Origin: a virus
Length of the DNA: 64,000 nt
Reading direction: 5' to 3' (one strand)
IMG/VR virus record: IMGVR_UViG_3300044739_000018
Coordinates: 64,001 to 128,000 of that record
In this document: one piece after another, positions 4,448-45,453 of the stretch
Numbering within the stretch: position 1 is the first letter of the stretch
Layout: every line of letters begins with the position of its first letter
Translations under genes and position numbers: made by a program
Notes under the pieces: model-generated
Seen by the model: the letters and a program-made list of their open reading frames with translations, nothing else
Database searches by the model: none
Told to the model about the DNA's origin: nothing

Positions 4448-4839
4448 GACGCCTTCGCAGTCCGAGGTCAGACCAGAAGGTCTGGTGCCATTGCACGTTG
4501 TCGGGTCGGTCTGTGCTGCTGAGTCGCCTGGATACGAACCGCCGACCGCACTCGCAGCGCCAGACGGTGCCGTGCGGCTCGGAGGCATGGTAGCCATCGC
4601 CCCGCACCGGCGGAGCGCACTGATGCAGCGGCTTCGCGCCACGCTTCACGATGGTCCCCATGGGTTACCGCCTCCCTGTGCAGTCAGTGACGCCACAGTG
4701 CTGCCAGCGCGTGTCGAAGAACAGGCCCGGCGTGTCATCGTCGATCCTGTTTCCCTGGACGAAGGCCCAGCCACAGCCGCATGACGTGATAATGAAGTTC
4801 GTGATGCGCGGGAATGGTCCACGCGGCTCCGGCGTCTTG

Positions 4840-5217
4840 TCACGTGCCATCGTCCACCTCATCCAGTATCTGCGTGTTGGTCTCCAGCACCTGGCGCAGA
4901 AGGACTTTGAGTTCCTCCTGCTCCTCGTGGGTGAAGGCGTCCCGGTTCACGATCAGCGTTGATGCGATGCTGGCCGTCACCATGGGCACAAAGAACACGA
5001 CCATGCTGGTGACCAGGCCAATGGCAACAAGGCGTCCCAGAAACGTCACGGGGTACGCGTCGCCGTAGCCAACGGTCGTTGCGGTGATCCACGCCCACCA
5101 CAGCGAGTCCCACAGGTTCTTGCCCTCTGCGATGTTGTACGTGATGCTGCTCACCACGAGCAGGACCACGGCCATCACCAGCAGCAGCCGCGGACTGTTT
5201 GCGATCTTGGCGATCAT
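4840..5217 (-). CDS. KcsA-like two-TM potassium channel
   Basis: TM - pore helix DSLWWAWITAT - filter TVGYGD - TM. Confidence 0.92.
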   Translation of the reverse strand: MIAKIANSPRLLLVMAVVLLVVSSITYNIAEGKNLWDSLWWAWITATTVGYGDAYPVTFLGRLVAIGLVTSMVVFFVPMVTASIASTLIVNRDAFTHEEQEELKVLLRQVLETNTQILDEVDDGT

Positions 5218-6013
5218 GACTTCCCCCAGCACACATCCATGACGAGAGCGACCAACAAGCACGTGCCGCCCATCCACACCGTCGCGCGGAACATTTCTCC
5301 GTAGTCCACGCTCACGTGATCGAAGCCCTCAACGAACCCCACGCCTACGTGAAACCAGGCGGTGATGAGCCAAATGGCAGCACAAACGCCCAGTACCGCG
5401 AGTGACCTCACCGCACCATCCCCTTGATCCGAGAAGCGGCCTCGTCGGCCAACCGCATGGCATGAGCCACGTCCTCGCTGTCAAGCTTCTCCAGCGCCAT
5501 GTTGGCCTGCGTGAGTCCGCAGTTGCAGCGTCCGTCTAGCTCGGGGAAGCCCGAGTCGTGCGCGGCAGCCGGGCAGTCGTTGAATCCCTCGTAGCCCTCC
5601 TGGAAGTGACCCCGGGCGACGTTGATGGCGAGCGCCAGGAGCACGTCGGTGTACTGGTCCTGCGTCAGTGTCGTGTACGGCTTGTCGATGTTCATGACGG
5701 GTAAATGTCGTCCACTTCGATCTCGTCGAAATCGGTCAGCGTGCCTAGGGCGTCGGTGACCCGCTTGGCGATCTCGTCAGACATCTTGTTCACGTCGACC
5801 TCGAACGCTTCCATGCCATGGATGTAGATGATGACCTCGAACTCGTTGGGAAGGTCCAACTCGTCGAGCAGGCGCGCTCGGAGGCGCACGTCCTCCACGT
5901 AGTCGTTGATGACCTGTGCCGCGTGCTTCTTGAACTGATGGACGACCTCTGCTTGGCGTGGCACCTGTGCCGGTGCCCGCTTCTTGGCGACCTTCTTGAC
6001 GGGTTTGGTTGCT

Positions 6014-6559
6014 TTACGGGGTACTGCCATTTGCGTTCCTCCATGCAAGGATGCTGTCGTCGGGCTGGCCGTAGAAGGACCGGACCTCGGCCTCCCACTT
6101 CCAGATGCGCATTTCGGTTTCGTAGATCATGCTTTTGTGCGTGGGGTCCATGCCGAGCACGTCTGTTGTCTTGGGGTTCGGCGTGGTGATGGCACAGAGT
6201 TTCGTCGCGTAGACCTCCATGGCCTTCAACATCCGGCGCGGATCCTCCAGGTGTTCGATGAGTTCGATGGCAACGATGAACTCGGCTTTGCGGGGTGGCG
6301 TCCAGAACTCCAGGTCGGTGCCGTCCAGACCACCGTCAATTGGCAGGTAACGACCACGCCAACCAAGCTCCCGCAGGTACACGTCGAACTCGGTCCACCC
6401 TGCGCCAATGTCGATCACCATGTCGTCGTTACAGAGGCCAGCGTCGATCATCTTCTCGGCCACGGCGGAGTAACGCTGGCAGCGCCACTCGTACTTGCCG
6501 GTGCGAGCCTTCAAGTACTGGTCACACGTATCAATCCACGGTGCCGTCTGTGTCGTCAT
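6014..6559 (-). CDS. class I SAM-dependent methyltransferase
   Basis: VIDIGAG motif I; IELIEHLEDP; ITTPN. Confidence 0.8.
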   Translation of the reverse strand: MTTQTAPWIDTCDQYLKARTGKYEWRCQRYSAVAEKMIDAGLCNDDMVIDIGAGWTEFDVYLRELGWRGRYLPIDGGLDGTDLEFWTPPRKAEFIVAIELIEHLEDPRRMLKAMEVYATKLCAITTPNPKTTDVLGMDPTHKSMIYETEMRIWKWEAEVRSFYGQPDDSILAWRNANGSTP

Positions 6560-21902: not shown

Positions 21903-23953
21903 GGTAAAAAGTCCGTGTATATAGATGGGGGGCAGTAATACTCCCGCGTTGGGAGAGGTAATCCCGGGCATGTTTCGCCCTACGCCTCTCGGGAGCGTTT
22001 CCCGGCATCATGCTTCCCGCCTAGCGCAACCCAAGCGGGCCATGACATAGCCCATCCGTTCAACGGATGTTCCGGATGACTCAAACCATGGACCTATCCC
22101 GGCTAAAAGCTGCCAAACGGTCCACGGACCACACTTCGTGCCCCGTACCTCGGGCTAGAAGCAGTCCATATGGGATCACACGAACCCGGCCGTACTGCTC
22201 ATGGCGCAGCACCATCGGAGAGCCTTGGTGGCGTGCCCGATCCCGCATTGCGGCAGGAAAGGTGCTACCCGAGATCCGGTTTCCCGGCCATAGGCCAACC
22301 CGGAAAAAGGGCACCAAGGATCGCGATGGATCTATGCGTGGACACGCTTGTCCAGCACAGGTTCGCGAACGTGGAGGGTGATTCAATCTGTAGGCGTCTG
22401 TACCCGCCCTCATTGTGCCGTGTACCGTCAGCACCCGAGGATGCGTCAAGCCACTGGTGGAGCGCCCCCCAACGAAGGGCACCCCTACGCACGAGGTGAG
22501 CAGCACGCTCACCCTCCTGTTATGTCCAGGGGCGATCCTGGGCCAAAAGCGCCCGAACCCCTAGTCGTCATGCATGCACCCCAGTCGCTACCCTGTGTGC
22601 ATGCGGGCGTCCTATCCCGGCCGTAGGCCAACGGACGTACCCGTGCATGAGCGTGGATGGTTGTCTGTCCATCCCCCAGCGTGCCCTGTGAGGCATGCTG
22701 GGGCATGTACCCAACCGTGCTAGGTGGTGGCATGTGCCATCCAGGGGGCAGGAGTCGAACCATGCCCGACCGTGCCAGTGCAGTGCTCACCCATGGTGTG
22801 GCCTGCTGGCGCGTCCTATCCCGGCTCTAGGCCAACGGACGTTGTGCGGTCCCACCCTTCTTCATGCAGCATCCCGAGCTGTACTCGGGGTAGGTGCAAG
22901 GGGACGCTACCGATCCCTGAAGGGCACGTGGCACCACCTAGCGGGGACCTATGTACGGGCGCGCCGAAGCCGGGCGCTAGGCCCGGTTCCGGACGGCCGC
23001 CTACTCTCCTTCGGCGCGACTCCACATGGAGCCGTTGTACGTGCGCACCTGTCCACCCCAGACGCGTCCCCACCGCTCGCGCGGCCCGAGTGACGTGCTC
23101 TTTCGGGTAGCCATGAAGTCGAGGTCGGCCTTCGTGCTCAGCCGCGTTGCTGCCTTGGACTCACCGGCGAACGAGTTGCGTGGCGCGAACCGCAATGCCA
23201 GGGGCTGAGCGTTCACGCGTGCCTTCATGGCGCTAACCATGATGCGCACGTAGAACGAGCAGGCTGGATCAGGGCATACGCCACCCGTCCCGTGCCGGTG
23301 CGGCGCAAGGCCGCGCGGAATGAGAGCGAGGGACATAAGATCCTCCTCTTGTTTGGCCGCGTTGAACTAAGGGGACCATCCCCGACCACGGAGCGCGGTC
23401 GTTCAAAGCAGCGGCGGTTGTCTCTCCGCCTCCCGGCGTCGCAGCCGGGCACAGCCCTAGCTTAACCCAGGGCATACGGTAGTGCCAAGGATTCCCAGAT
23501 TTCGCATAAGTGCAGGTCAGAGGCCCGGGGGGGGTCCGGTATGGGCGGAATGTCCGGTTTGAATTGCTTCGCCTGGTATCCCCGTACGCAGCGAAGAAAG
23601 TCAAAAGTCTAGAGTTGACTCTAGGGTTGGCGAGTCTGAGGTCTCGTGAACGGACGTTTTGAGATCTGTTGCCAAGCACCGCAACAGGGCTGACCTGCCC
23701 GGACGCGTTCCGACAGACGCGGCTGAACAGATTTCACAAGCTCACAATCGCCAACGGACGTTCTGTGGAAATCGAACGAGAAATCAGCTAATGGCGATTT
23801 GACAGCCGCGAAGGCGCAGGTCAGGGGTTGTCAAGACCAACAAACTAGTTGGATTTGTCGTTCGATCCTATGCCAACGGACGTTGAAATGGTTTTGTCCA
23901 CTTCTCCTGGAGGAATGCTGGCGTCAGGGAGACCCGGGCTGTATTCTGCTGGG

Positions 23954-24529
23954 ATGTTCGAACGGTTCACTGACAAGGCGCGAAGGATCCTCGTTGTATC
24001 CCAGGAGGAGGCTCGCGAACTCGACCACAACTTCCTCGGAACCGAGCACATCATGTTGGCGATGCTGCACGAGGAAGACACCATCCCTCATGACGTGCTG
24101 GTCACCATGGGTGCCGACTACGAGCAGGCACAGAAGCTCGTCCGAGCAGCCGTGCCCGCGACAGGCGCGAGCGGCCAGGCTCCGTTCACGCCTCGGGCCA
24201 AGAAGGTCTTGGAACTCTCGCTGCGGGAAGCCCTCCAGCTTGGGCATAACTGGATTGGTCCCGAGCACATGATTCTCGCCTTGGTTCGTGAGGGTGACGG
24301 CATCGGTGTTGCCGTGCTGGAGCAGATGGGTCTCGACTGGGGAGTCATTCGCCAGGGCGTGATCGAGGAAGTGGGCAAGAAGCTCCCTCGTATGCCCGCA
24401 GCAAGGACTGTTACGCTGCCCCACGATGAGGCCAAGGAGCTGCGTGAATGGATTCTGCGGTTCGGCGGCTTGGTAAACCCGCTTCCCCATGCTCTGGACG
24501 CTGTATTGCGGCGCCTCAACAACCTTTAA
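23954..24529 (+). CDS. stand-alone Clp N-terminal (double Clp_N) protein
   Basis: MFERFTDKARR..GTEHIMLA and PFTPRAKKVLELSLREALQLGHNWIGPEH match actinobacterial ClpC NTD; no AAA+ domain. Confidence 0.92.
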   Translation: MFERFTDKARRILVVSQEEARELDHNFLGTEHIMLAMLHEEDTIPHDVLVTMGADYEQAQKLVRAAVPATGASGQAPFTPRAKKVLELSLREALQLGHNWIGPEHMILALVREGDGIGVAVLEQMGLDWGVIRQGVIEEVGKKLPRMPAARTVTLPHDEAKELREWILRFGGLVNPLPHALDAVLRRLNNL

Positions 24530-24612
24530 GTCAACGCAACTGGGTGTTAAGTCAACGCATCTAGCTGATACCCGGAGCATTGACTACTGTTTCACCTTAA
24601 GTCAATCCATGC

Positions 24613-25137
24613 CTAAAGTAGAGTCAATGCATGCCTGAGTAGGCGCATTGGTATGAGTTCAGACGCTGGCATGACGTAGGCACCTTTGAAGGTGCCCTCT
24701 GTTGAGATGTGCTTGATGTCGAAGCCGTATGCCCACCCCACGAACACCACTTTGATGGGTGGAGTCAATGTCTCGACCAATGCCAGGATGTAGATGCTCT
24801 CATCATGCCGTTCTCGGGGCCGAACGGCGAGGCGATACAACTCGTGCGGCTTGCTCCTGCGCATCAACGATGTCTTCACGTCGATGCAGCCGAAGTCCGA
24901 CCCGCCATCACCGACCAACGGGTTCTTGTCGATCTCGGCGCGCCGTTGGAAGTACATCTCCTCGGCTCCCATGTACCGATGCAGTGCAAGTTCCCCGAGC
25001 TGCCCAACGAGCTGATCTTCGATCAACGAGGATTGACGGTCGTCTCCTCGGACCCAGCTCACTCCGCCAATGCAAGCGTTCTCAACGTGCGTTTGAATCC
25101 GGTCGAGCGTCTGCTTGTTGATCAGCGTGTGTATCAC
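24613..25137 (-). CDS. hypothetical protein, possible PD-(D/E)xK nuclease fold
   Basis: GQLGELA...GDGGSDF..IDVKTS pattern. Confidence 0.5.
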   Translation of the reverse strand: MIHTLINKQTLDRIQTHVENACIGGVSWVRGDDRQSSLIEDQLVGQLGELALHRYMGAEEMYFQRRAEIDKNPLVGDGGSDFGCIDVKTSLMRRSKPHELYRLAVRPRERHDESIYILALVETLTPPIKVVFVGWAYGFDIKHISTEGTFKGAYVMPASELIPMRLLRHALTLL

Positions 25138-25543
25138 GGCGGATCCTCTCGATCTCTAGCTGCACGGCGAGGTCGTCAAGTTTCTCGTTGGTCTTGCGCA
25201 GCTCGATCAAGATGTTCGCGAGCAACTGCGCCGTTCCGTGGTCAGAAGTTCCCTTCGACGTGATCTCGTGGACGGCGCAGTAGTAGGAGCCGGGCGCACT
25301 GTTCGGCTCGCGGCAGAGCTTCTCCTGGCATTCGGTCGGCGGCTGCGGCACCGGGGCTGGCAGGCTCGACCGGAGCGTGTGGATCTTCGTCAGGATTTCC
25401 GGACGGGCCAGCGTCATCTTCTCGTGGGCGTACACGATGTCGAGTTCGTCGTCGTATAGCTCGGGGAGCAAGGGCAGGATCTCCGACACCCGCATGTCGT
25501 CGTAGTCCTCGATCACTATGTCCATCTTCAGTTCATCAGTCAT
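25082..25543 (-). CDS. hypothetical protein
   Basis: 153-aa ORF beginning immediately after the array. Confidence 0.6.
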   Translation of the reverse strand: MTDELKMDIVIEDYDDMRVSEILPLLPELYDDELDIVYAHEKMTLARPEILTKIHTLRSSLPAPVPQPPTECQEKLCREPNSAPGSYYCAVHEITSKGTSDHGTAQLLANILIELRKTNEKLDDLAVQLEIERIRRDTHADQQADARPDSNAR

Positions 25544-25551
25544 CGTGCCTC

Positions 25552-27589
25552 GGATAGTCGGCGTGGGCCGGAGAGTTCCGGGTGGACCAGTCGGATGGGA
25601 GGGGTCGAGGCTAGTTGGGTCGGGGTGGGACGGGAAGTCGGTTGGCTCGGTGTGGGGCGAACTGGTTCGTCGGGCGGGGTGGGGCGGGGATGACCAGGCA
25701 TGTCAGGTGGTCCGACGCGGGGAGAAGGGGGCAGGCTGGGTTAGTCGGTAGGGCTGCTGTGGGACGGGGCGGGTAGTCGGCTGGGGACGGGTTGACTGGC
25801 ATAGGCTCGGGAAGTCGGGCAGGCCCGGGTCGGGATGGCGAGGGACGCGACGGGCTGGGGAGCGATGGGTAGGCGGGGGCAGTCGGGATGGGAGCGGGGG
25901 GACGACTCGGCTTGTCGGACAGGTGCGGAAGGGTGCGGTCTGTCGAAGCGAGTGGGGTGCGGGTCGGTGCGACAAGGTTCGTCGTAAGGGGTCGGGCCGC
26001 GCGGGGTCGGGCGGGGAGGGTTGGGTAGTCGGAGCGGGACGAGAGGGTTGGGGGCGCACCGGGGAGGGGCGGGCAGGAACGTCAGTTGGGGCGTGTTGAT
26101 GTGGCTGGGCTTGGATGGTCGGCTTGGATCGAGACGGACGGGGCGGGCAGGGGTCGGCGGGGGTAGTCGTTTGATCAGGGTCGGGTTGCGCTGGGCCGGG
26201 TAGTCGGCTTGGGTCGGGAAGGGTCGGGCGATCTTGGGTCGGCTTGTCACGTGGGAAGCGAAGGCAAGGGGTGGGTAGTCGGAATGGGATGGACAGGACT
26301 GGCCGGAATAAGGTTAGTCACTTGGACAGAGTTGTCCTGGCGAGGGGAGACAAGTCGTATGGGTTGAGACGGCTTGGGATGCAGTCGGCCAGGGACGGGT
26401 CGTCATTCGGGCAGGGGGGATTTGGCATGGCTCGGGCAGTCATGCGTCTTGGGGCGGGTGGCTTCGGGGTGGCATGTCAGATGGGGCGAAAAGGGAGGGA
26501 CGGGTGAGGTCCGGATAGTCGCGCTGGGGCGTGCGGGCACGGGACGGCATGAGTAGTCGCGTAGGTGTGAGACGGGTGGGATAGGCATGGCGTGTCATGC
26601 GGGATGGGTGGACCCGGATGGACGGGGGAGGGGGCGGGTGGGGTTGTCGTAAGGGTCGGCTCGGGAAGGCTTGCCGGGTGATCGGGCGGGCTTGGCTCGG
26701 GAAGTCGTTAGGGCCGGGAGGAGTCGGGGTGGCGAGGGTAGTCGGCCAGGATTGGTCGAGGCCGTGCCGGTATGGACCGGATAGTCGCTCGGGGCGAGAC
26801 GGAGAGCGCCGGGGTGGCATGGGTTGTCGGGGTGGGACGGCTCGGGCGGGGCAGGGTGGGGCCGGATCGGGGGGAGCCGGGCGGTGACGACTCGGGCCGG
26901 GACGGGACGTCGATGCGTGCAGGGACGCGATGGAACGGGGAGGGTAGTCAGGAGGGGATGCGAAGGGTCGGGTTGGGTAGTCGCCAGGGAGGGGGCGTCG
27001 GGGGCAGGGTCGGACGGGGTTGGGTGGTCGAGCAGGGATGCGTTGGATCGGGGAGACCTGGGAAGTCGACCGGACAGGGGCGGGCCGAGGCGCGAAGGGC
27101 TGGGGTCGGGTAGTCGAGAGGGCGGTGACGAGGTGGCTAGGGCGGGATAGTCGCGTGGCGTGGGCCGAGGCGGTACGGGTGGACCCGGGTAGTCAGACGA
27201 CTTGGGGCGGGTGGGACCGGTAAGTCGAAAGAATAGGTCTGACTAGGGAGGGGTAGTCGGATTGATTAGGAGGGCCGCGGCTGGGGGTGGTAAGGGAAGT
27301 CGGTGAGCGCGGGGTTGGGTCGACCAGGGAAGTCAGATGGTAGGGCCAGGGAAGCCGTGACTCGGGACGGGTAGTCGTGCGGGGTGGGTTGAGCTGAGGA
27401 GGCGGGGGTGGGATTGGTTGGTCAGATGGGGCAGGGGATGAAGCGCCGATGGGCTGGGCTGGGCAGGGAAGTCAGATGGGGCGGGTTGGGATGTTGAGAC
27501 GAGACGGGGGCAGGCGGGGGATGTCGGCGGGGGCAGGAGCGGGACGGCGTGGGCAGCGTTGCGACGGATTGGGGAGGGACGGGTAGTCG
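25552..27589. repeat. pentamer-phased non-coding array (about 48 units), candidate guide-RNA array
   Basis: 49 anchors GGNWWGTCR (+); 45 of 48 spacings equal 5n+2 or 5n+3; G at every fifth base within units. Confidence 0.9.
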
Positions 27590-27649
27590 TGTACCGGGAG
27601 TAACCCGGGTCCAAGTTGCCAAGTTCGTTGTTGCAGAACGAACGAGACC

Positions 27650-27669
27650 GGCTACCCCGAAGGGTAGCC
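27650..27669 (-). terminator. 8-bp hairpin with cUUCGg loop between the RAMP operon and the array
   Basis: GGCTACCC-TTCG-GGGTAGCC on minus strand; terminator or processing signal. Confidence 0.6.
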
Positions 27670-27705
27670 CGTCACGTTCAGCCTTTCAAGAGCAAGTTCT
27701 TTTCC

Positions 27706-27912
27706 TCAACGTTTGTTGAGAAGGCGGTGCAAGGCCCGAATGCTCTCAGGCCACTCGTCGTTGGGGAACACGTCGGACAGCGGCTCGCATGACAGCACAC
27801 GGAAGCACGCCTTCTGGCAGCGGTGATGGCACCAGCCGTCGTCCGGGCAGTGCCAGATGGTGTGCATGTCGTCGGTCGGGTCCCGGCCTACCTGCGGCGC
27901 TTCCGTTGCCAT
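27706..27912 (-). CDS. small Cys/His-rich protein
   Basis: 68 aa; CPDDGWCHHRC..C..C. Confidence 0.55.
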   Translation of the reverse strand: MATEAPQVGRDPTDDMHTIWHCPDDGWCHHRCQKACFRVLSCEPLSDVFPNDEWPESIRALHRLLNKR

Positions 27913-28100
27913 TCTTCCCTTGCCTTCTCCAGCGTCTGGCCCTCCGACTTGCTGCCGAACCTGCGGGCAGGGTCATCGGGATCGGGGAAGACCCCGCAAC
28001 GACCACACCGCCCGGACCCATGGAATCGCACGATGGGCCAGACGGTGCAGTCGCACGCGATGAAGTCGATCCCGAAATCATCGAGCGGGTACTCGGCCAT
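27888..28100 (-). CDS. small zinc-finger protein
   Basis: ATG overlaps the RAMP stop; CDC...CGRC. Confidence 0.55.
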   Translation of the reverse strand: MAEYPLDDFGIDFIACDCTVWPIVRFHGSGRCGRCGVFPDPDDPARRFGSKSEGQTLEKAREEWQRKRRR

Positions 28101-28756
28101 TACAGCTTGGCCCACTCCACGACGGCGTACCGTCCGTAGCTCTGGCTGCGGGTGGCACCAATGCCCTGCTGCTCGCCGGTGGTCCAGAGATCGGCCCACT
28201 CGTCGTCGGAGAAGTCGAAGTCGCTTCGCACCGAGAACGGCACCTTCGCGTCCTCGACGTACTCCTCGTACTGAATGCCCGTTCCACGGAAGGTGGAGAC
28301 GAACCGCTGCTGGATGCCGGACGGCTCGGTGACGCCCAGGTGCAGGCGATCCTCGATGACGAAGATGTGCTCCGCCACGAATGCCTTCGTGCCCTTGCGG
28401 GTGGGACCCCAGCGGCGGTCAGGCCAGCGGATCGAAGCCGCCTCCTTCAACGCCGCCTTGAGCTGACGGCCCTCGATGTAGAGGCCCTCGTCGTCTCTTT
28501 TGAACCCATTGAGCTTGGTGGTCTTGACGACCTCGTCGATGGCGTCGTCCTTGACCACGCCGCGCTCCAGCATGGTCTTGGTGACCAGCTCAGAGATCAG
28601 CGCCTGGTTGTCGGCACCGAGGGTCTTCTTGATCCAGCCCTCGGCCACCTTGGGGTCGGACGGGATGCCGCCGACCAGGTGATCGACCTGGAGCACGCCG
28701 CCGAAGCGGTTCTTGTAGAGGGCGTCGCGATGCTTCTCGAACACACTGTTTGCCAT
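28100..28756 (-). CDS. stand-alone Cas7/RAMP-like protein
   Basis: LYIEGRQLKAALKEAA (cf. IPGSSLKGALR of Csm3/Cmr4) and C-terminal Gly-rich loop GIGATRSQSYGRY; AAGGAG RBS. Confidence 0.75.
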   Translation of the reverse strand: MANSVFEKHRDALYKNRFGGVLQVDHLVGGIPSDPKVAEGWIKKTLGADNQALISELVTKTMLERGVVKDDAIDEVVKTTKLNGFKRDDEGLYIEGRQLKAALKEAASIRWPDRRWGPTRKGTKAFVAEHIFVIEDRLHLGVTEPSGIQQRFVSTFRGTGIQYEEYVEDAKVPFSVRSDFDFSDDEWADLWTTGEQQGIGATRSQSYGRYAVVEWAKL

Positions 28757-28777
28757 GATGTTCTCCTTACGGTTCGG

Positions 28778-29299
28778 TTAGACGGATTCCTGCGTGATGC
28801 TTTGGTACAGCCGGGTGAACTCCTCGTCGGAGATCACGTCCTTGACGGTCTTGCCGGTCGGGACCTGCTTGGCAAGCTGCTTGAAGAACATGGCCTCCAT
28901 CGAGAGCCTCGCGGCCTGGCTGCCATAGCTCGTGGCGACATAGCTCAGATCGGCGTTCGTCATGTCGCCCACCTGCCGCCTGGTGTTGCTGTCGTCGATG
29001 ACATACATCTGCGACAGCGGGTTCTCGCCCGCCCTGACCGCGGCCACGAAGTTGTCAAACTTCTCGGCACGCATGAGCTGGCGGGCCTCGGCCCGACGCT
29101 TCGCCAAGGTGTGGCTGGCGACCTCACGGAGCTGACCGAGGGCCAGGTCGTGCTGCCACTCCGACAGATGCTCCGGTGCATGCTCCTCCAGCCAAGCGAG
29201 GGCCTTCTCGGCAACCTCTCGGCTGGTGAAGTCACCATGCTCGGGGATGGCCTGCTCCACCGCGTTCTTCACGATGATCGCTGGCCGAATGTCGTCCAT
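28778..29299 (-). CDS. helical accessory protein co-transcribed with the RAMP
   Basis: 173 aa; GGAGGAGG RBS; 21 nt upstream of the RAMP gene. Confidence 0.8.
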   Translation of the reverse strand: MDDIRPAIIVKNAVEQAIPEHGDFTSREVAEKALAWLEEHAPEHLSEWQHDLALGQLREVASHTLAKRRAEARQLMRAEKFDNFVAAVRAGENPLSQMYVIDDSNTRRQVGDMTNADLSYVATSYGSQAARLSMEAMFFKQLAKQVPTGKTVKDVISDEEFTRLYQSITQESV

Positions 29300-29342
29300 G
29301 GTCCTCCTCCTAATTACGGTGTGGTTGGTGCTGCGGAGAGGC

Positions 29343-29371
29343 AAGGTACATCCATAAGGAGTAGAAGTCAA
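29343..29371 (-). promoter_or_regulatory. sigma70/HrdB-type promoter for the accessory+RAMP operon
   Basis: TTGACT-17 nt-TACCTT on minus strand. Confidence 0.65.
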
Positions 29372-29449
29372 GAGGCAATATGTCCAGAGACGCGAAGAAG
29401 GGGCCGGTTTCCCGACCCCTTCTAGCGCATCCTCCCGTAGAAAGGGAGA

Positions 29450-30289
29450 TCAGGTGGTCACCGGCTTGGCAACCTTGCTTGCCTTGACGATGGCCTTCTT
29501 CGTGGGCTTGGCACCGCGGAGCCGACCGTGCCGAGTGAAGGGGTCGCGCAGACGGCGACCGGAGTGCTTGTTGATGATCTTGATGAAGCTCCTCGCAAGC
29601 TCGATGTGATTGTTCGATCCGGTGACCGAACGGGTCCGAGCCTGGCTGTCCATCAAGAGGGCGCGCGGGGACTCGTTGCGCAGCGCGTCCGCGACCATGG
29701 ACGTGTCCAGGTCGGGGAAGGCGATGAGCGTCAGGGACAGGCCCTTGAGCACCCGGTCATCGAAGGCAGAGGCGAGGTTCGCCCACGCCGACGTGACGAC
29801 GTTCATCGTGCGCCGGACGGCAGTTGCGCCGCCCCGCTCGTACATCCAGTACATGGCCCGCACGGCACGGATGTTCTTGGCACCCGCGTCATTGCTGAGC
29901 TTGTAGCCGAACGACGTGATGATCTCGTCGATCTCCTTGGCCTTGGCCTCGCCAGCGAACAACTGCGCCCGGTGCCGAGCGGCGGGCGTGATGTTCTTGC
30001 GGCCCTCCTGAGCACGGACGAACAGGCTGGCCTGGTCCTGCGGGGTGTCGGGGCTGATCTGCGCCCAAGCTGTCGTGAAACCGAGGCGACGGAGCGCCTC
30101 CAGCCGGTGCTGACCGTCCCACACCCATGTCGGGGCCGAGTGGTCGTCGTGGGCGATCATCAGAACGCCCAACAGACGCGGGTCGTACTCAGCGACGATC
30201 TTCATGACCCGGCCCTCATCCAGCTCCCGCTGGTAGCCCGGATGCACACGAAGACCGCTGAGCGGAATCTCCTTGTACTGCGTGGTCAT
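29450..30289 (-). CDS. ParB/Srx-like (DGQHR-motif) protein
   Basis: YQRELD...VWDGQHRLEAL...ASLFVRAQ; GGAGGA RBS. Confidence 0.8.
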   Translation of the reverse strand: MTTQYKEIPLSGLRVHPGYQRELDEGRVMKIVAEYDPRLLGVLMIAHDDHSAPTWVWDGQHRLEALRRLGFTTAWAQISPDTPQDQASLFVRAQEGRKNITPAARHRAQLFAGEAKAKEIDEIITSFGYKLSNDAGAKNIRAVRAMYWMYERGGATAVRRTMNVVTSAWANLASAFDDRVLKGLSLTLIAFPDLDTSMVADALRNESPRALLMDSQARTRSVTGSNNHIELARSFIKIINKHSGRRLRDPFTRHGRLRGAKPTKKAIVKASKVAKPVTT

Positions 30290-33200
30290 TGCCGTTTCCT
30301 CCATGTTGGCGTTGTGCGGACGAGAGTAGAGCACAGGTTGATCACCGGAGTCAATACCCCCGGACAAAGATTCTTTGCCCACCGATTACAGGCCGTCAGC
30401 GGGCCTAATTTTCCATCCGAACAGCGAACTACTTCGATGTTCTTCAAGCGGGCACGGCTGGTGACCTTATGGATGGTCTTCTCAACGGTCGTTGACAGCG
30501 TTTTGCGAGAACTGTTAGAGTGTCCCGGTGGGCAACCCCTTCATCACCAAGTGCGCCTTCAGGGACAAGTTCGGCTATCGGTTCAAGAGGCTGCACTGGG
30601 CCTGGCACCGGCAGTGGTGGCTGGCGTTTGCGGTGAAGGAGAAGGCCCGGCACGCGGCTCAGATGCTGGGCCAACCGTGCTTTGTCACCCAGGCCGACGT
30701 GGACTGGGGCAAGAGGATCGCGAAGGAGCGTGGCCTGATGTAACAGCCCTTTGTCACTCGACAAAGGAGGTTGGTCATGGTGACCATCATCTGCTACATC
30801 AGCACGCCCGGTCGGCGCTACCACACAACTGCCACGGTGACGAAGTTGTCGCTGACGGCGGCATGGGCGCACATTTCCCGGTGCCCGCATGGACACGCCT
30901 TGAAGATGAGGTAGAGTCTGCCCGCCCCGGCAGGCTCTGGAGGCAAGACCACGCCATGCCCCTTGAAAATCAGGCTGGCGCAGAGACATCCATAATCTCT
31001 GGTCTCAACGCCATCCTGCCGGGGCACCTCTCTTTGGTGTACGTTCCTCTCCATGGAGGAAGTGAAGGTGGACGTTCGCCTTTGCGAGAGCGAACACGTC
31101 CCGCACCACGACTGGGGAGCCATCATCGGCGTCGTGTTCCAGTACGACGCTGCCCCGGACCAGTGGAAGAACAGAGACGAGCTTCACTTCACCTCCCCTG
31201 CCAGCGTGAAGGTCGGCGGCATGGAGTTCTGGATCGGCTGTAAGCAATTGGCCTTCATCGCGCTCTCTGACGACATCACCATTGCCTGCGCCACTACCTT
31301 GACTCTCCAGGCTGGTTCCATCATCCTGCGCGAAGGCAACACGGCCTTCATGTCGTTGGCAGCCACCTTGTCGGCCATCGAGGATTCTCAGGAGTTCGAG
31401 TTGCTCCGTCGTCAACTCATGGGTGCAGTCGAAGGGGGGAGTCTGTGGCTTCAATGAAATGCCCCTGCTGTAAACATACGTTGACGACTCCTGCCCGCAT
31501 CAGCATCGCTGTCAACCACGAGGAGGAGGACCACCGACTGAATGTTGTGGTGACCGAAGCCGTGGATCTACTTGCAAACGAAGTCAAACGGATGTATCCA
31601 AAGGACATCGCACCACAGTGGAAGCGGCTCCAGGAAGCCCTGGAGGCGTTCACCCGCGTCGACATGGAAGCAGCAGAGCGCAACTATGTCGTCAACCAAC
31701 TCATGAGCATGGAGAAGGAGCTAGGAGCATGAACCAGAAGGAATTCGACGAGGCCATGGACGAGATGAAGAAGGGCTTCGAGTCCATGTGGAACGGCATC
31801 GGCAAGGCGTTCACCTCGATGTGGGACGACCTGAAGGACGACGCCAAGGCTGCCAGCACCAAGGCGGGCGAGAAGGTGACCGACATCAGGAAGACCACGA
31901 AGGCCGCGAAGAAGAAGTGAGTCCGGCCCGGCAGAAGGCCGAGGCAGTCACCCGTGAGTACAAGGTCGATTCCACGTGGGCCTACAACGGCGCGGTCTTC
32001 GTGAGGCTGCATTCTTGCAGCCGCAATGGCAGCTCGTGGGGTGAGAGCTACGGCGTGCTCACCATCCAGGTGCCCCAAGACAAGGCGGCTGACTACTTGC
32101 CGAACACGGTCTGTGAGGTCACCATCGTCAACAAGAAGAAGCAGGAGGAGCGCGACGTTCCTGCTGTCCTGCGCCAGATCGGCACGGCGAACGGAGGACC
32201 GCGATGACTGACCGAAAATTGGTACGGGCTGTCCGCATCGAGTTGTACGACGATGGCATGACGGTGCTCAAGACGGACATGCCGTCGATGGACAAGGGCG
32301 TCTATGTCGACTCGCTTGACAAGCTGATCGCTGAGATTCCGAAGTACCTGGGGTCGACTGATGGCTAAGACCTGGCAGGACCTTTCCACTCGCGAGTTCT
32401 TCACCATGATGGAGACACCCGAGGCCCAGGCCATCGCGAACCAACATCATGCTGCCATCTACGGCGAAGGTGAGGAGCACAGCATGTTTCACTCGTGCCC
32501 GTGTGCTCACCGCTCCGTGCAGGAACTTCTGGACGCCGCCGAATGACACAGCCCACCTGTTTCCTTCGGACCACGCGCAAGGAGCTAGAGGAGCAGCGCC
32601 GGAAGGGCTGGACCGAGTTCCACCCCGAGGACTTCTGCCACCTGTGCTTCCACGCCAACATGGGGTCGTGGTCGATAGACAGCGCGACCTGGAACGAAGC
32701 CAACGTCGAGCAGTTCTGCCAAAGCGGCATCGTCTGCCCGATGTGCTTCGCCGCGATCTACACCGCCGAGACGGGCAAGCAAGTCGGTTGGCAGCTTGCC
32801 ATCAGGAACGACGGCCAGTGAAGCCCACACCGCGGTCCAACCCTGACGCCAGGGTCGACGGCTGCGCTCACACGACCGTCCGTTGCAGCCTGTGTGGCAC
32901 AGACCTCATCGGCTGCACCCATGAAGGCGGCATGCAACTGACGCCCGGCCAGCGCAACACGTTGGCGGGCCTCCACACGAAGCGGGCACGGAAGCGCAGC
33001 TTGTGGAAGCGGATCTTCGGTGAGGTCGATTCCGATGCGTACTGGCAGGGCAGAGGATGAAGCAGCCCCAGTTCTACGACCCTCCGAACTTGTTCACCAA
33101 GGACTATGAGCACCGGCACGTGCGCCGGGAGGTTCTCGCCCGGTACATCTATGAGCACTGGTCCAAGCTCATGCTCGATGCGGGCAAGGGCAACGAGATC

Positions 33201-45295: not shown

Positions 45296-45370
45296 GTCTC
45301 GATGGTGAAATGGAGATCATTGCGGTCTACGAAACCGCCGTTAGAGGTTCGAATCCTCTTCGAGACGCCA
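45296..45370 (+). tRNA. tRNA-Arg(ACG)
   Basis: GCGGT-CTACGAA-ACCGC; CCA. Confidence 0.92.
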
Positions 45371-45376
45371 CCACAC

Positions 45377-45453
45377 GTCGATGTAGCTCAGCCGGACAGA
45401 GCGCGGGCCTCCGAAGCCCGAGGCCAGAGGTTCGAACCCTCTCATCGACGCCA
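45377..45453 (+). tRNA. tRNA-Arg(CCG)
   Basis: CGGGC-CTCCGAA-GCCCG; CCA. Confidence 0.93.

What the first reader, a model, noticed from the sequence alone, without database searches (positions are those of the whole stretch)
28100..28756. Orphan Cas7/RAMP-like protein without any cas operon
218 aa with RAMP hallmarks in the expected order: beta1 followed by Gly (LQVDHLVGG), LYIEGRQLKAALKEAA, a thumb-like segment (QQRFVSTFRGTGIQYEEYV) and the terminal G-loop GIGATRSQSYGRY. No cas1/2/3/5/6/8/10 and no repeat-spacer CRISPR occur in the window. Established: Cas7-family proteins polymerise on guide RNA with a fixed nucleotide step. Inference: this is the effector for the pentamer array.
Basis: partly seen in the sequence, partly recalled or inferred. 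Interest (0 to 1): 0.9.

Follow-up and report, generated by a model that had tools for sequence, protein, structure and literature searches.

The report
Phage VIPR guide-RNA protein, C-rich variant
The 218-residue protein is a lone CRISPR-like RNA-binding protein of the VIPR family, first published in 2026, which phages use with five-letter-repeat guide RNAs to silence rival DNA, and this copy belongs to a large branch whose repeats appear to be built from C rather than G.

Summary
The ORF is real (28100-28756, minus strand, 218 aa).

No Pfam, PHROG, PADLOC or NCBIfam model recognises it. A confident AlphaFold model (pLDDT 92) matches Cas7-type RAMPs almost exclusively (Csm3, type VII Cas7, gRAMP; Foldseek E 5e-7, Z 10.2).

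The complete 163-kb phage genome has no Cas1, Cas2, Pfam-type RAMP or CRISPR array.

Profile comparison links the family to the characterised Vipr protein of phage SUSP1 (probability 92%, E 5e-7). The family holds at least 1329 clusters at 90% identity.

In 54 of 58 related viral loci the gene sits beside a strand-biased non-coding array. The array has a 5-nt period (NNcCC on the gene's strand), is punctuated by CGAC(T/A)NCC, and its content is hypervariable.

So this is a VIPR system (Vipr protein plus vrRNA array), described in 2026 preprints.

What may be new: the repeats are C-rich on the coding strand, the residues that read guanine in SUSP1 Vipr are replaced, and the conserved partner gene is unrelated to vap1.

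The RNA strand and the targets remain untested.

The parts
28100..28756 (-). vipr-like gene: a 218-aa stand-alone single-RRM RAMP with thumb hairpin and G-loop
   Evidence: ORF. AF2 model, pLDDT 92. Cas7-type fold matches. hhalign to the SUSP1 Vipr family: probability 92.4%, E 5.3e-7.
25550..27592 (-). Array of about 50 units built from pentamers: NNcCC on the minus strand, GGsNN on the plus strand. Units are separated by GAC (GTC on the plus strand) within CGAC(T/A)NCC. This is the candidate vrRNA array.
   Evidence: Sequence. GC skew +0.41. GTAGTCG occurs 12 times here on the plus strand only. G autocorrelation is 0.25 at lag 5 and 0.21 at lag 10, with a Viterbi parse into about 52 units. 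The same architecture lies next to homologues.
28778..29299 (-). Conserved partner gene (173 aa from the ATG at 29299; the longest ORF reaches 29371). Mostly helical. Candidate vap.
   Evidence: A homologue lies upstream of vipr in 40 of about 57 non-redundant loci, usually in the order partner-array-vipr. AF2 pLDDT 90. No significant PDB match. Unrelated to SUSP1 vap1.
29343..29371 (-). Promoter-like site TTGACT-17-TACCTT ahead of the partner-vipr operon
   Evidence: One of only two matches in 64 kb to TTGANN-N16-18-TACCYT, against 0.10 expected. The pattern was drawn from these two sites themselves.
27661..27689 (-). Promoter-like site TTGAAA-17-TACCCT on the C-rich strand, about 70 nt before the first array unit
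   Evidence: It overlaps a hairpin at 27650-27669 that reads C(UUCG)G on the minus strand.
27888..28102 (-). Small Cys-rich ORF (about 70 aa) whose ATG overlaps the vipr stop codon. Role unknown.
   Evidence: ORF list. It was not recovered as a conserved family among flanking ORFs.
27706..27912 (-). Small Cys/His-rich ORF (68 aa) between vipr and the array. Role unknown.
   Evidence: ORF list.
29450..30382 (-). ParB-like / DGQHR (DUF6551) gene at the head of the leftward gene block. An occasional neighbour of vipr.
   Evidence: Pfam DUF6551, E 7.6e-12. PHROG ParB-like. TIGR03187 DGQHR, weak. Homologues lie near vipr in 3 other loci.

Best explanation
The ORF encodes a Vipr-family protein, the single protein component of a VIPR (Viral Interference Programmable Repeat) system of a 163-kb phage.

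Proposed mechanism, by homology with SUSP1 Vipr:
- Protomers should polymerise along RNA transcribed from the adjacent 2-kb array, one protomer per pentamer.
- Each protomer should clamp the three scaffold bases and expose the two variable bases.
- The exposed dinucleotides should then read double-stranded DNA of competing phages or other mobile elements with a one-base skip, and silence it.

In this branch I judge that the RNA is the C-rich strand, the same strand as the gene. Its repeats would be s-C-C/NN, and the array would be cut into about 50 short guides at the GAC punctuation.

What is shown: the fold, the homology, the absence of Cas1, Cas2 and CRISPR arrays, the conserved gene-array linkage, the 5-nt code, the hypervariable content, and the replaced guanine-reading residues.

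What is inferred: filament formation, DNA targeting, the strand, and the processing.

My odds: VIPR identity regardless of strand about 0.88; the C-rich strand as the RNA, given VIPR, about 0.7.
For: Fold:
- AF2 model with pLDDT 92.
- The Foldseek PDB top 50 are all Cas7-type RAMPs; best is Csm3 6ifl_F at E 5.1e-7.
- VIA-align Z 10.2 over 151 residues at 3.8 A to Csm3 9g9a_D. Nearly all of the top 50 are RAMPs.
- Viral RAMP-like models in BFVD match at E 3e-12 to 3e-8.
- The only PDB sequence hits of the family profile, though weak, are four Csm4 chains at the G-loop.

Homology to a characterised Vipr:
- Family profile A2 against the SUSP1 Vipr family A3: probability 92.4%, E 5.3e-7, 135 columns. 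A global run gives E 1e-6.
- The SUSP1 protein is PDB 36pp, 'SUSP1 Vipr protein'.

Linkage to the array:
- 54 of 58 non-redundant loci have a C-rich stretch within 4 kb of the gene, and it usually abuts the gene.
- The motif CGAC[TA]N[CG]CC is found almost only on the sense strand.
- Spacing between motifs falls in class 3 mod 5 in 108 of 235 cases, p 3e-19.
- C is at 83-90% every fifth base.
- Between phages whose vipr genes are 86-92% identical, the array shows no detectable similarity and differs in length.

Strand:
- Arrays fill the gap between co-oriented genes. The last exact motif starts 15-32 nt before the vipr ATG in 11 loci.
- The inverted extra arrays examined (L051, L018, L036) are again C-rich on the coding strand of the adjoining gene.
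- Two promoter-like sites lie on the minus strand.
- SUSP1 guanine readers D177, W178 and R138 align to A201 (never D or E in 60 sequences), S/T202 and E164. The pyrimidine-pocket Arg (R179) aligns to the invariant R203, and the base 5' of NN is the best-conserved C.
Against: - Transcription, strand and processing are therefore unproven.
- All published VIPR types are described with G-containing scaffolds (GGY, NNNGG, YNNNG, NNNNG). Read on the other strand, this array is GGsNN, which fits 'NNNGG'.
- SUSP1 carries its repeats on the vipr strand as the G form.
- SUSP1 vrRNA tails begin GGTAGT.../GGGTAGTTAGTC. That resembles the plus-strand punctuation GGGTAGTCG here and would favour the G-rich strand.
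- The residue mapping rests on an 18%-identity profile alignment.
- Two guides decoded by the skip rule had no exact match in the viral contig collection.
- I could not see the preprint's supplementary tables, so this branch may already be one of the seven published types.
Confidence: 0.62

Rival explanations
1. It is the same VIPR system, but the guide is the G-rich strand, antisense to vipr. The repeats would then be of the published NNNGG kind, and GTAGTC would act as a minimal 3' tail or 5' handle.
For: - GG is the core of all published vrRNA scaffolds.
- The plus-strand pentamer reads G(about 90%) G(about 65%) s N N.
- SUSP1 tails start with GGTAGT / GGGTAGTTAGTC, like GGGTAGTCG here.
- Three hairpins at 27592-27669 could terminate a rightward transcript.
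Against: - A promoter would have to sit inside the coding sequence of the adjoining gene in locus after locus, because the array runs close to that gene's ribosome-binding site.
- Position 3 of the pentamer would be a purine in about 63% of units, although the Arg of the pyrimidine pocket is invariant.
- The guanine-reading Asp, aromatic residue and Arg of SUSP1 Vipr are absent.
Confidence: 0.26
2. It is a lone RAMP with another job: either a Cas6-like endonuclease that only processes the array transcript, or a Cas7 mimic that poisons host type I/III CRISPR complexes. In neither case would it form a guide-presenting filament.
For: - Cas6 and Cas5 chains also appear among the fold matches at Z 5.5-8.5.
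- Three of 60 family members give weak Cas_Cas6_C hits.
- The regular GAC punctuation must be cut by something.
Against: - Cas7-type chains dominate both structure searches.
- The profile is homologous to a Vipr shown to form filaments.
- A strict 5-nt code over 2 kb is what a one-protomer-per-repeat binder requires. A site-specific nuclease or a decoy would not need it.
Confidence: 0.07
3. The array is a DNA-level element, such as a centromere for the ParB-like protein, a replication origin, or a G-quadruplex or R-loop region. On this view the RAMP gene is only a neighbour.
For: - A ParB-like DGQHR gene heads the same gene block.
- The plus strand is rich in G-runs.
Against: - The ParB-like gene accompanies vipr in only 4 loci, whereas the array accompanies it in 54.
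- Array content is hypervariable between close relatives, unlike protein-binding iterons.
- A 5-nt step does not fit the DNA helical repeat.
Confidence: 0.03

Closest known systems
VIPR type II of Escherichia phage SUSP1 (Vipr + vap1 + vrRNAs; PDB 36pp; bioRxiv 10.64898/2026.04.26.720920 and 10.64898/2026.04.26.720927)
   Same: - Phage-encoded, with no Cas1, Cas2 or CRISPR array found.
- A protein of about 200 aa with a single RRM, thumb and C-terminal G-loop; profile homology at E 5e-7.
- Flanking intergenic arrays of pentanucleotide repeats with three constrained and two free positions.
- The Arg after the G-loop glycines is invariant in both families.
- A two-gene module.
   Different: - SUSP1 repeats are T/C-N-N-G-G on the vipr strand. 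There are 4 separate vrRNAs of about 100 nt, with 9-16 repeats, promoter-like sites ahead of at least two of them, and a structured tail.
- Here the vipr strand reads NNcCC. Units have mostly 5-10 repeats, and about 50 of them abut in one 2-kb array punctuated by GAC, with no long tail.
- The guanine contacts D177, W178 and R138 are replaced.
- The partner gene is unrelated to vap1.
- An HMM of this family does not find the SUSP1 gene.
Non-canonical and 'staggered' VIPR arrays (fig. S18 of 10.64898/2026.04.26.720920; section 2.3 of 10.64898/2026.10.21.760802)
   Same: - Continuous arrays in which one guide ends where the next begins.
- 5-nt periodic arrays with scaffolds other than GGY (GAC/NN, CAC/NN, WGT/NN, TGH/NN), found next to Vipr-like folds.
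   Different: - No C-C-C type scaffold is named in the text available to me.
- Those non-canonical motifs are said to repeat 10 times, whereas unit length here varies widely.
- The figures and tables were not readable, so overlap cannot be excluded.
Type III Csm3/Cmr4, type VII Cas7 and the Cas7 domains of gRAMP/Cas7-11
   Same: - These are the best structural matches (Foldseek E 5e-7 to 1e-5; Z 9-10).
- They share the RRM core, thumb hairpin and G-loop.
   Different: - No Cas7 sequence model matches.
- No cas operon or CRISPR array is present.
- The adjacent array has a 5-nt period, not the 6-nt step of crRNA-bound Cas7 (the 6-nt step is taken and from general knowledge).
- Sequence identity is 7-19%.
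Type IV Csf2 (Cas7)
   Same: - RAMP fold at Z 8.3-8.6 (8rc3_A, 8rc2_A, 7jhy_e).
- Carried on mobile elements, and acts by nuclease-free interference (the latter from general knowledge).
   Different: Csf2 works with Csf1, Csf3 and Cas6 and with a CRISPR array. None of these was found here.

Membership tests
VIPR / Vipr protein | Small stand-alone RAMP: single RRM core, thumb hairpin, C-terminal glycine-rich loop | tested here: met
   AF2 secondary structure and confidence. Cas7-type fold matches.
VIPR / Vipr protein | Sequence homology to an experimentally characterised Vipr (SUSP1) | tested here: met
   hhalign A2 against A3: probability 92.4%, E 5.3e-7, 135 columns. SUSP1 family identity confirmed by PDB 36pp. 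A single-sequence comparison is only weak, E 0.017.
VIPR / Vipr protein | Non-CRISPR context, mostly viral: no cas operon, no CRISPR array | tested here: met
   Complete virus record with terminal repeats. No Cas1, Cas2 or Pfam RAMPs. No CRISPR-like repeats. Cas3, Cas5, Cas6, Cas8 and Cas10 were not searched one by one.
VIPR / Vipr protein | Flanking intergenic tandem pentanucleotide repeats with a fixed trinucleotide and a variable dinucleotide | tested here: met
   Position-specific composition around 420 motif instances. Quantised spacing, p 3e-19. Autocorrelation and parse of the window's array.
VIPR / Vipr protein | Canonical GGY/NN scaffold on the transcribed (vipr) strand | tested here: not met
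   The vipr strand reads NNcCC. On the opposite strand the third position is a purine in about 63% of units. SUSP1 carries YNNGG on the vipr strand. The preprint allows 'a related consensus'.
VIPR / Vipr protein | Guanine-reading residues of SUSP1 Vipr (D177, W178, R138) and the pyrimidine-pocket Arg (R179) | tested here: not met
   Aligned residues are A201, S/T202 and E164. Only R179 is kept, as the invariant R203. The mapping depends on a remote alignment.
VIPR / Vipr protein | Guide content hypervariable between related elements | tested here: met
   Flanking genes are 78-92% identical while the array between them has no blastn match and differs in length.
VIPR / Vipr protein | Accessory vap gene in a two-gene module | tested here: inconclusive
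   A conserved 170-220 aa partner is present in 40 of about 57 non-redundant loci. It is unrelated to vap1 and has no significant fold match.
VIPR / Vipr protein | Protein-RNA filament, and dsDNA recognition by the 1-nt skip rule | not testable with these tools
   Needs RNA co-purification, electron microscopy and reporter assays. Two exact-match scans of decoded guides found nothing, which is uninformative.
CRISPR Cas7 (Csm3/Cmr4/Csf2) | Match to a Cas7/RAMP sequence family model | tested here: not met
   No hit in Pfam, PADLOC or NCBIfam. PF03787 is absent from the genome.
CRISPR Cas7 (Csm3/Cmr4/Csf2) | Encoded in a cas operon next to a CRISPR array | tested here: not met
   The gene map of the window shows only small phage genes.
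CRISPR Cas7 (Csm3/Cmr4/Csf2) | RAMP fold with thumb and G-loop | tested here: met

The most novel reading that the evidence does not exclude
This branch of at least 1329 protein clusters may be a re-coded VIPR.
- Its Vipr would clamp a cytosine-based scaffold (s-C-C/NN) rather than GGY, using a rebuilt base-reading pocket (Ala and Ser/Thr in the G-loop, Glu in the thumb).
- Its guides would come as dozens of short units in one sense-strand transcript, cut at a GAC punctuation, without ribozymes, separate promoters or structured tails.

That would show that the scaffold of the non-contiguous code is itself evolvable. It would also provide an orthogonal Vipr-guide pair.
Probability: 0.5. Interest if true: 0.7.

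Novelty: new variant of a known kind. Interest (0 to 1): 0.55.

Why it matters
VIPR is a very recent discovery: a CRISPR-like but older way in which phages aim a protein filament at DNA with a gapped RNA code.

This locus shows that a large, mostly soil and freshwater metagenomic branch of the family exists that no Pfam, PHROG, PADLOC or NCBIfam model recognises. Members carry arrays of up to about 50 guides.

If the scaffold really is cytosine-based, with a different recognition pocket, three things follow:
- it gives a natural test of how Vipr reads its scaffold;
- it supplies a second, orthogonal protein-guide pair for programmable DNA binding;
- it widens the range of RAMP-RNA recognition relevant to the proposed origin of CRISPR.

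For annotation, it assigns a function to more than a thousand 'hypothetical' phage proteins and to their odd C-rich intergenic regions.

Tried and rejected
- Family libraries (Pfam, PHROGs, PADLOC, NCBIfam) gave nothing for the protein.
- Megablast of 12 kb against GenBank phages found no match. tblastn found one homologue, in Microcystis phage Mae-JY09, annotated as hypothetical.
- An HMM of the family did not find the SUSP1 vipr gene. Only profile-profile comparison did.
- Rfam found no family in 24500-30600. The generic sigma-70 and terminator scan was at chance level.
- Two long guides (units at 26031 and 27526), decoded with the published one-base skip rule, had no exact match in the viral contig collection. 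Exact matching of 20-22 specified bases is insensitive, so I stopped there.
- Complex prediction of the RAMP with the conserved partner returned no verdict. It says nothing either way.
- The partner's model had no significant PDB match. There were only faint partial resemblances to winged-helix domains.
- The search for related loci with the diverse alignment failed for lack of a conserved stretch. The closer alignment worked.
- I considered and rejected a ParB centromere, a replication origin and an anti-CRISPR decoy as the main reading (see the rival explanations).
- I did not test whether D34 corresponds to the catalytic Asp of Csm3. It is only 44/60 conserved.

Full report
**Observation**

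Its codon statistics are those of a real gene, with GC3 0.89 against GC2 0.40.

It lies in a leftward gene block. In transcription order (descending coordinates) the block runs:
- a ParB-like/DGQHR gene (29450-30382);
- a helical 173-aa protein (28778-29299);
- this ORF;
- two small Cys-rich ORFs;
- about 2 kb of non-coding DNA (25550-27592), G-rich on the plus strand (GC skew +0.41).

The window is part of a complete 163,481-bp virus record with direct terminal repeats.

**Fold**

No Pfam, PHROG, PADLOC or NCBIfam model matches the protein.

The family is nevertheless large. It has 1329 clusters at 90% identity with E <= 1e-3 and 596 representatives at 50% identity. All are unnamed and about 215-260 aa long.

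With a 60-sequence alignment, AlphaFold gave a confident model (pLDDT 92.2, pTM 0.87). Its structural matches are as follows:
- The 50 best Foldseek matches in the PDB are all Cas7-type RAMPs (Csm3, type VII Cas7, Cmr, gRAMP/Cas7-11 domains). The best E is 5.1e-7, and 141 hits have E <= 1e-3.
- An independent all-against-representatives alignment gave Z 10.2 to Csm3 (151 residues, 3.8 A). It gave Z 8.3-9.8 to gRAMP, Cmr, type VII Cas7 and Csf2, and nearly all of the top 50 are RAMPs.
- The only PDB sequence hits of the family profile are four Csm4 chains at the G-loop, all weak (E 0.17-1.3).
- Predicted viral proteins with the same fold exist in BFVD (E 3e-12 to 3e-8).

The genome has no Cas1, Cas2 or Pfam-type RAMP, and the window has no CRISPR-like repeats.

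**Link to the array**

I fetched 62 related viral loci plus three from other sources.
- In 54 of 58 non-redundant loci a stretch that is C-rich on the gene's strand (skew below -0.3) lies within 4 kb of the gene.
- It usually runs up to the start codon. In a minority of loci, including the window and Microcystis phage Mae-JY09, it begins just after the stop codon.
- The stretches share the motif CGAC(T/A)N(C/G)CC almost exclusively on the sense strand.
- Distances between successive motifs peak at 28, 33, 38, 43, 48 and 53 nt. Class 3 mod 5 holds 108 of 235 spacings (p 3e-19).
- Averaged over 420 motif instances, the sequence is a pentamer repeat, N-N-c-C-C. C is at 83-90% every fifth base, and GAC is inserted between pentamers at unit borders.
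- In the window, G autocorrelation is 0.25 at lag 5, and a simple hidden Markov parse gives about 52 units of mostly 5-10 pentamers.
- Between phages whose RAMP genes are 86-92% identical and whose partner genes are 78-86% identical, the array in between has no detectable similarity and differs in length. The scaffold is conserved while the content is hypervariable, as with CRISPR spacers.

**Identity**

It describes VIPR systems as follows:
- a stand-alone, mostly phage-encoded RAMP (Vipr, about 20 kDa);
- an accessory vap gene;
- vrRNAs made of YNNGG pentamers, whose NN dinucleotides read double-stranded DNA with a one-base skip and repress competing phages and satellites;
- seven types, some with alternative scaffolds (NNNGG, YNNNG, NNNNG) and some with 'staggered' continuous arrays.

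A companion structural preprint (10.64898/2026.04.26.720927) shows one protomer per repeat in a right-handed filament. It names the base contacts:
- G1 is read by H17 and D177.
- G2 is read by R138 and W178.
- Y3 sits in a pocket with R179.

I located the SUSP1 locus in KT454805.2. It comprises vipr (28474-29061, minus strand), vap1 (28031-28471) and YNNGG runs on the same strand. PDB 36pp is this protein.

A profile of its family (A3) matches the profile of our family (A2) with probability 92.4% and E 5.3e-7. The match spans 135 columns covering helix 1, the thumb and the G-loop; a global run gives E 1e-6.

The protein is therefore a Vipr, and the array is its vrRNA array.

**What differs**

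*Strand.* In SUSP1 the G-containing repeats lie on the vipr strand. Here that strand is C-rich.
- Arrays fill the whole gap between co-oriented genes.
- In L004 the last motif is followed directly by AGGAG and the ATG. In 11 loci the last exact motif starts 15-32 nt before the start codon.
- The partner gene usually precedes the array, giving the order partner-array-vipr.
- The inverted extra arrays examined (in L051, L018 and L036) are again C-rich on the coding strand of the gene they adjoin.
- A G-strand transcript would need a promoter inside that gene in locus after locus.
- In the window, the only two matches to TTGANN-N16-18-TACCYT lie on the minus strand, one before the partner gene and one about 70 nt before the first unit. 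Chance expectation is 0.10, but the pattern was derived from those same two sites.

*Base-reading residues.* In the alignment, SUSP1 D177 maps to A201 (Ala in 53 of 60 sequences, never Asp or Glu). W178 maps to S/T202, and R138 maps to E164. R179 maps to the invariant R203. On the C-rich strand the base just 5' of NN, which corresponds to Y3, is the best-conserved position and is a pyrimidine. On the G-rich strand it would be a purine in about 63% of units.

*Architecture.* There are about 50 short units in one 2-kb array with a 3-nt punctuation and no long structured tail.

*Partner gene.* It is unrelated to vap1 and has no significant fold match.

**Points against the C-strand reading**
- Every published scaffold contains G.
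- SUSP1 tails begin with GGTAGT / GGGTAGTTAGTC, which resembles the plus-strand punctuation GGGTAGTCG.
- The residue mapping rests on 18% identity.
- No RNA data could be obtained.

I put the C-strand reading at about 0.7, given VIPR identity.

**Novelty**

The kind is known from 2026 preprints.
- A later preprint (10.64898/2026.10.21.760802) already reports non-canonical 5-nt scaffolds (GAC/NN, CAC/NN, WGT/NN, TGH/NN) next to Vipr-like folds.
- The text available to me names no cytosine scaffold.
- I could not read the figures or supplementary tables, so the branch may already be typed.

I file it as a new variant of a known kind, of moderate interest.

**Earlier scan notes**

An earlier follow-up in this scan (e1-5654083) reached the same reading for the array. 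I used it as a lead for PDB 36pp, which I then verified. I reached the VIPR identification before that look-up and built the strand argument from my own comparative and residue-level data.

**Untested**

Transcription, processing, filament formation and targets remain untested. Two exact scans of decoded guides found nothing.

Noticed in passing
window 29450-30382 (-): A ParB-like protein with a DGQHR/DUF6551 signature (related to DndB/DpdB) heads the leftward block. Homologues lie near vipr in three other loci (L039, L041, L051). It may be an occasional accessory of this VIPR branch.
   Followed up: partly
window 23849-24529 (+): A stand-alone Clp_N (ClpC N-terminal) domain protein without an ATPase domain (Pfam E 5.8e-25).
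   Followed up: no
L002:314-1933 and 4830-6100: A related phage contig encodes a Ro60/TROVE-vWA protein. It also carries a second C-rich pentamer array (about 5150-6000) that appears, by eye, to lie between two tRNA genes; I did not run a tRNA finder on it. This array is separate from the one abutting vipr.
   Followed up: no
window 27592-27669: Three consecutive hairpins lie between the small ORFs and the array. The last is GGCTACCC-CGAA-GGGTAGCC, which gives a UUCG tetraloop on the minus strand. Its arm resembles the array punctuation GGGTAGTC and overlaps the promoter-like -10 element.
   Followed up: partly
window 25550-27592; literature: The punctuation contains TAGTC/GACTA. Preprint 10.64898/2026.10.21.760802 describes an unrelated 8-nt-period element made of fixed TAGTC pentamers with variable trimers (its cluster 8,581). 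This may be coincidence or a shared recognition element.
   Followed up: no
window 45343-45453: Two 28-nt direct repeats 83 nt apart look like the 3' ends of adjacent tRNA genes. I did not check them with a tRNA finder.
   Followed up: no
window 27706-28102 (-): Two small Cys/His-rich ORFs (about 70 and 68 aa) sit between vipr and the array. The first overlaps the vipr stop codon. Other loci also have a 56-62 aa ORF right after vipr (L002 with a weak DUF7167 hit, L004), but no sequence family was recovered.
   Followed up: partly
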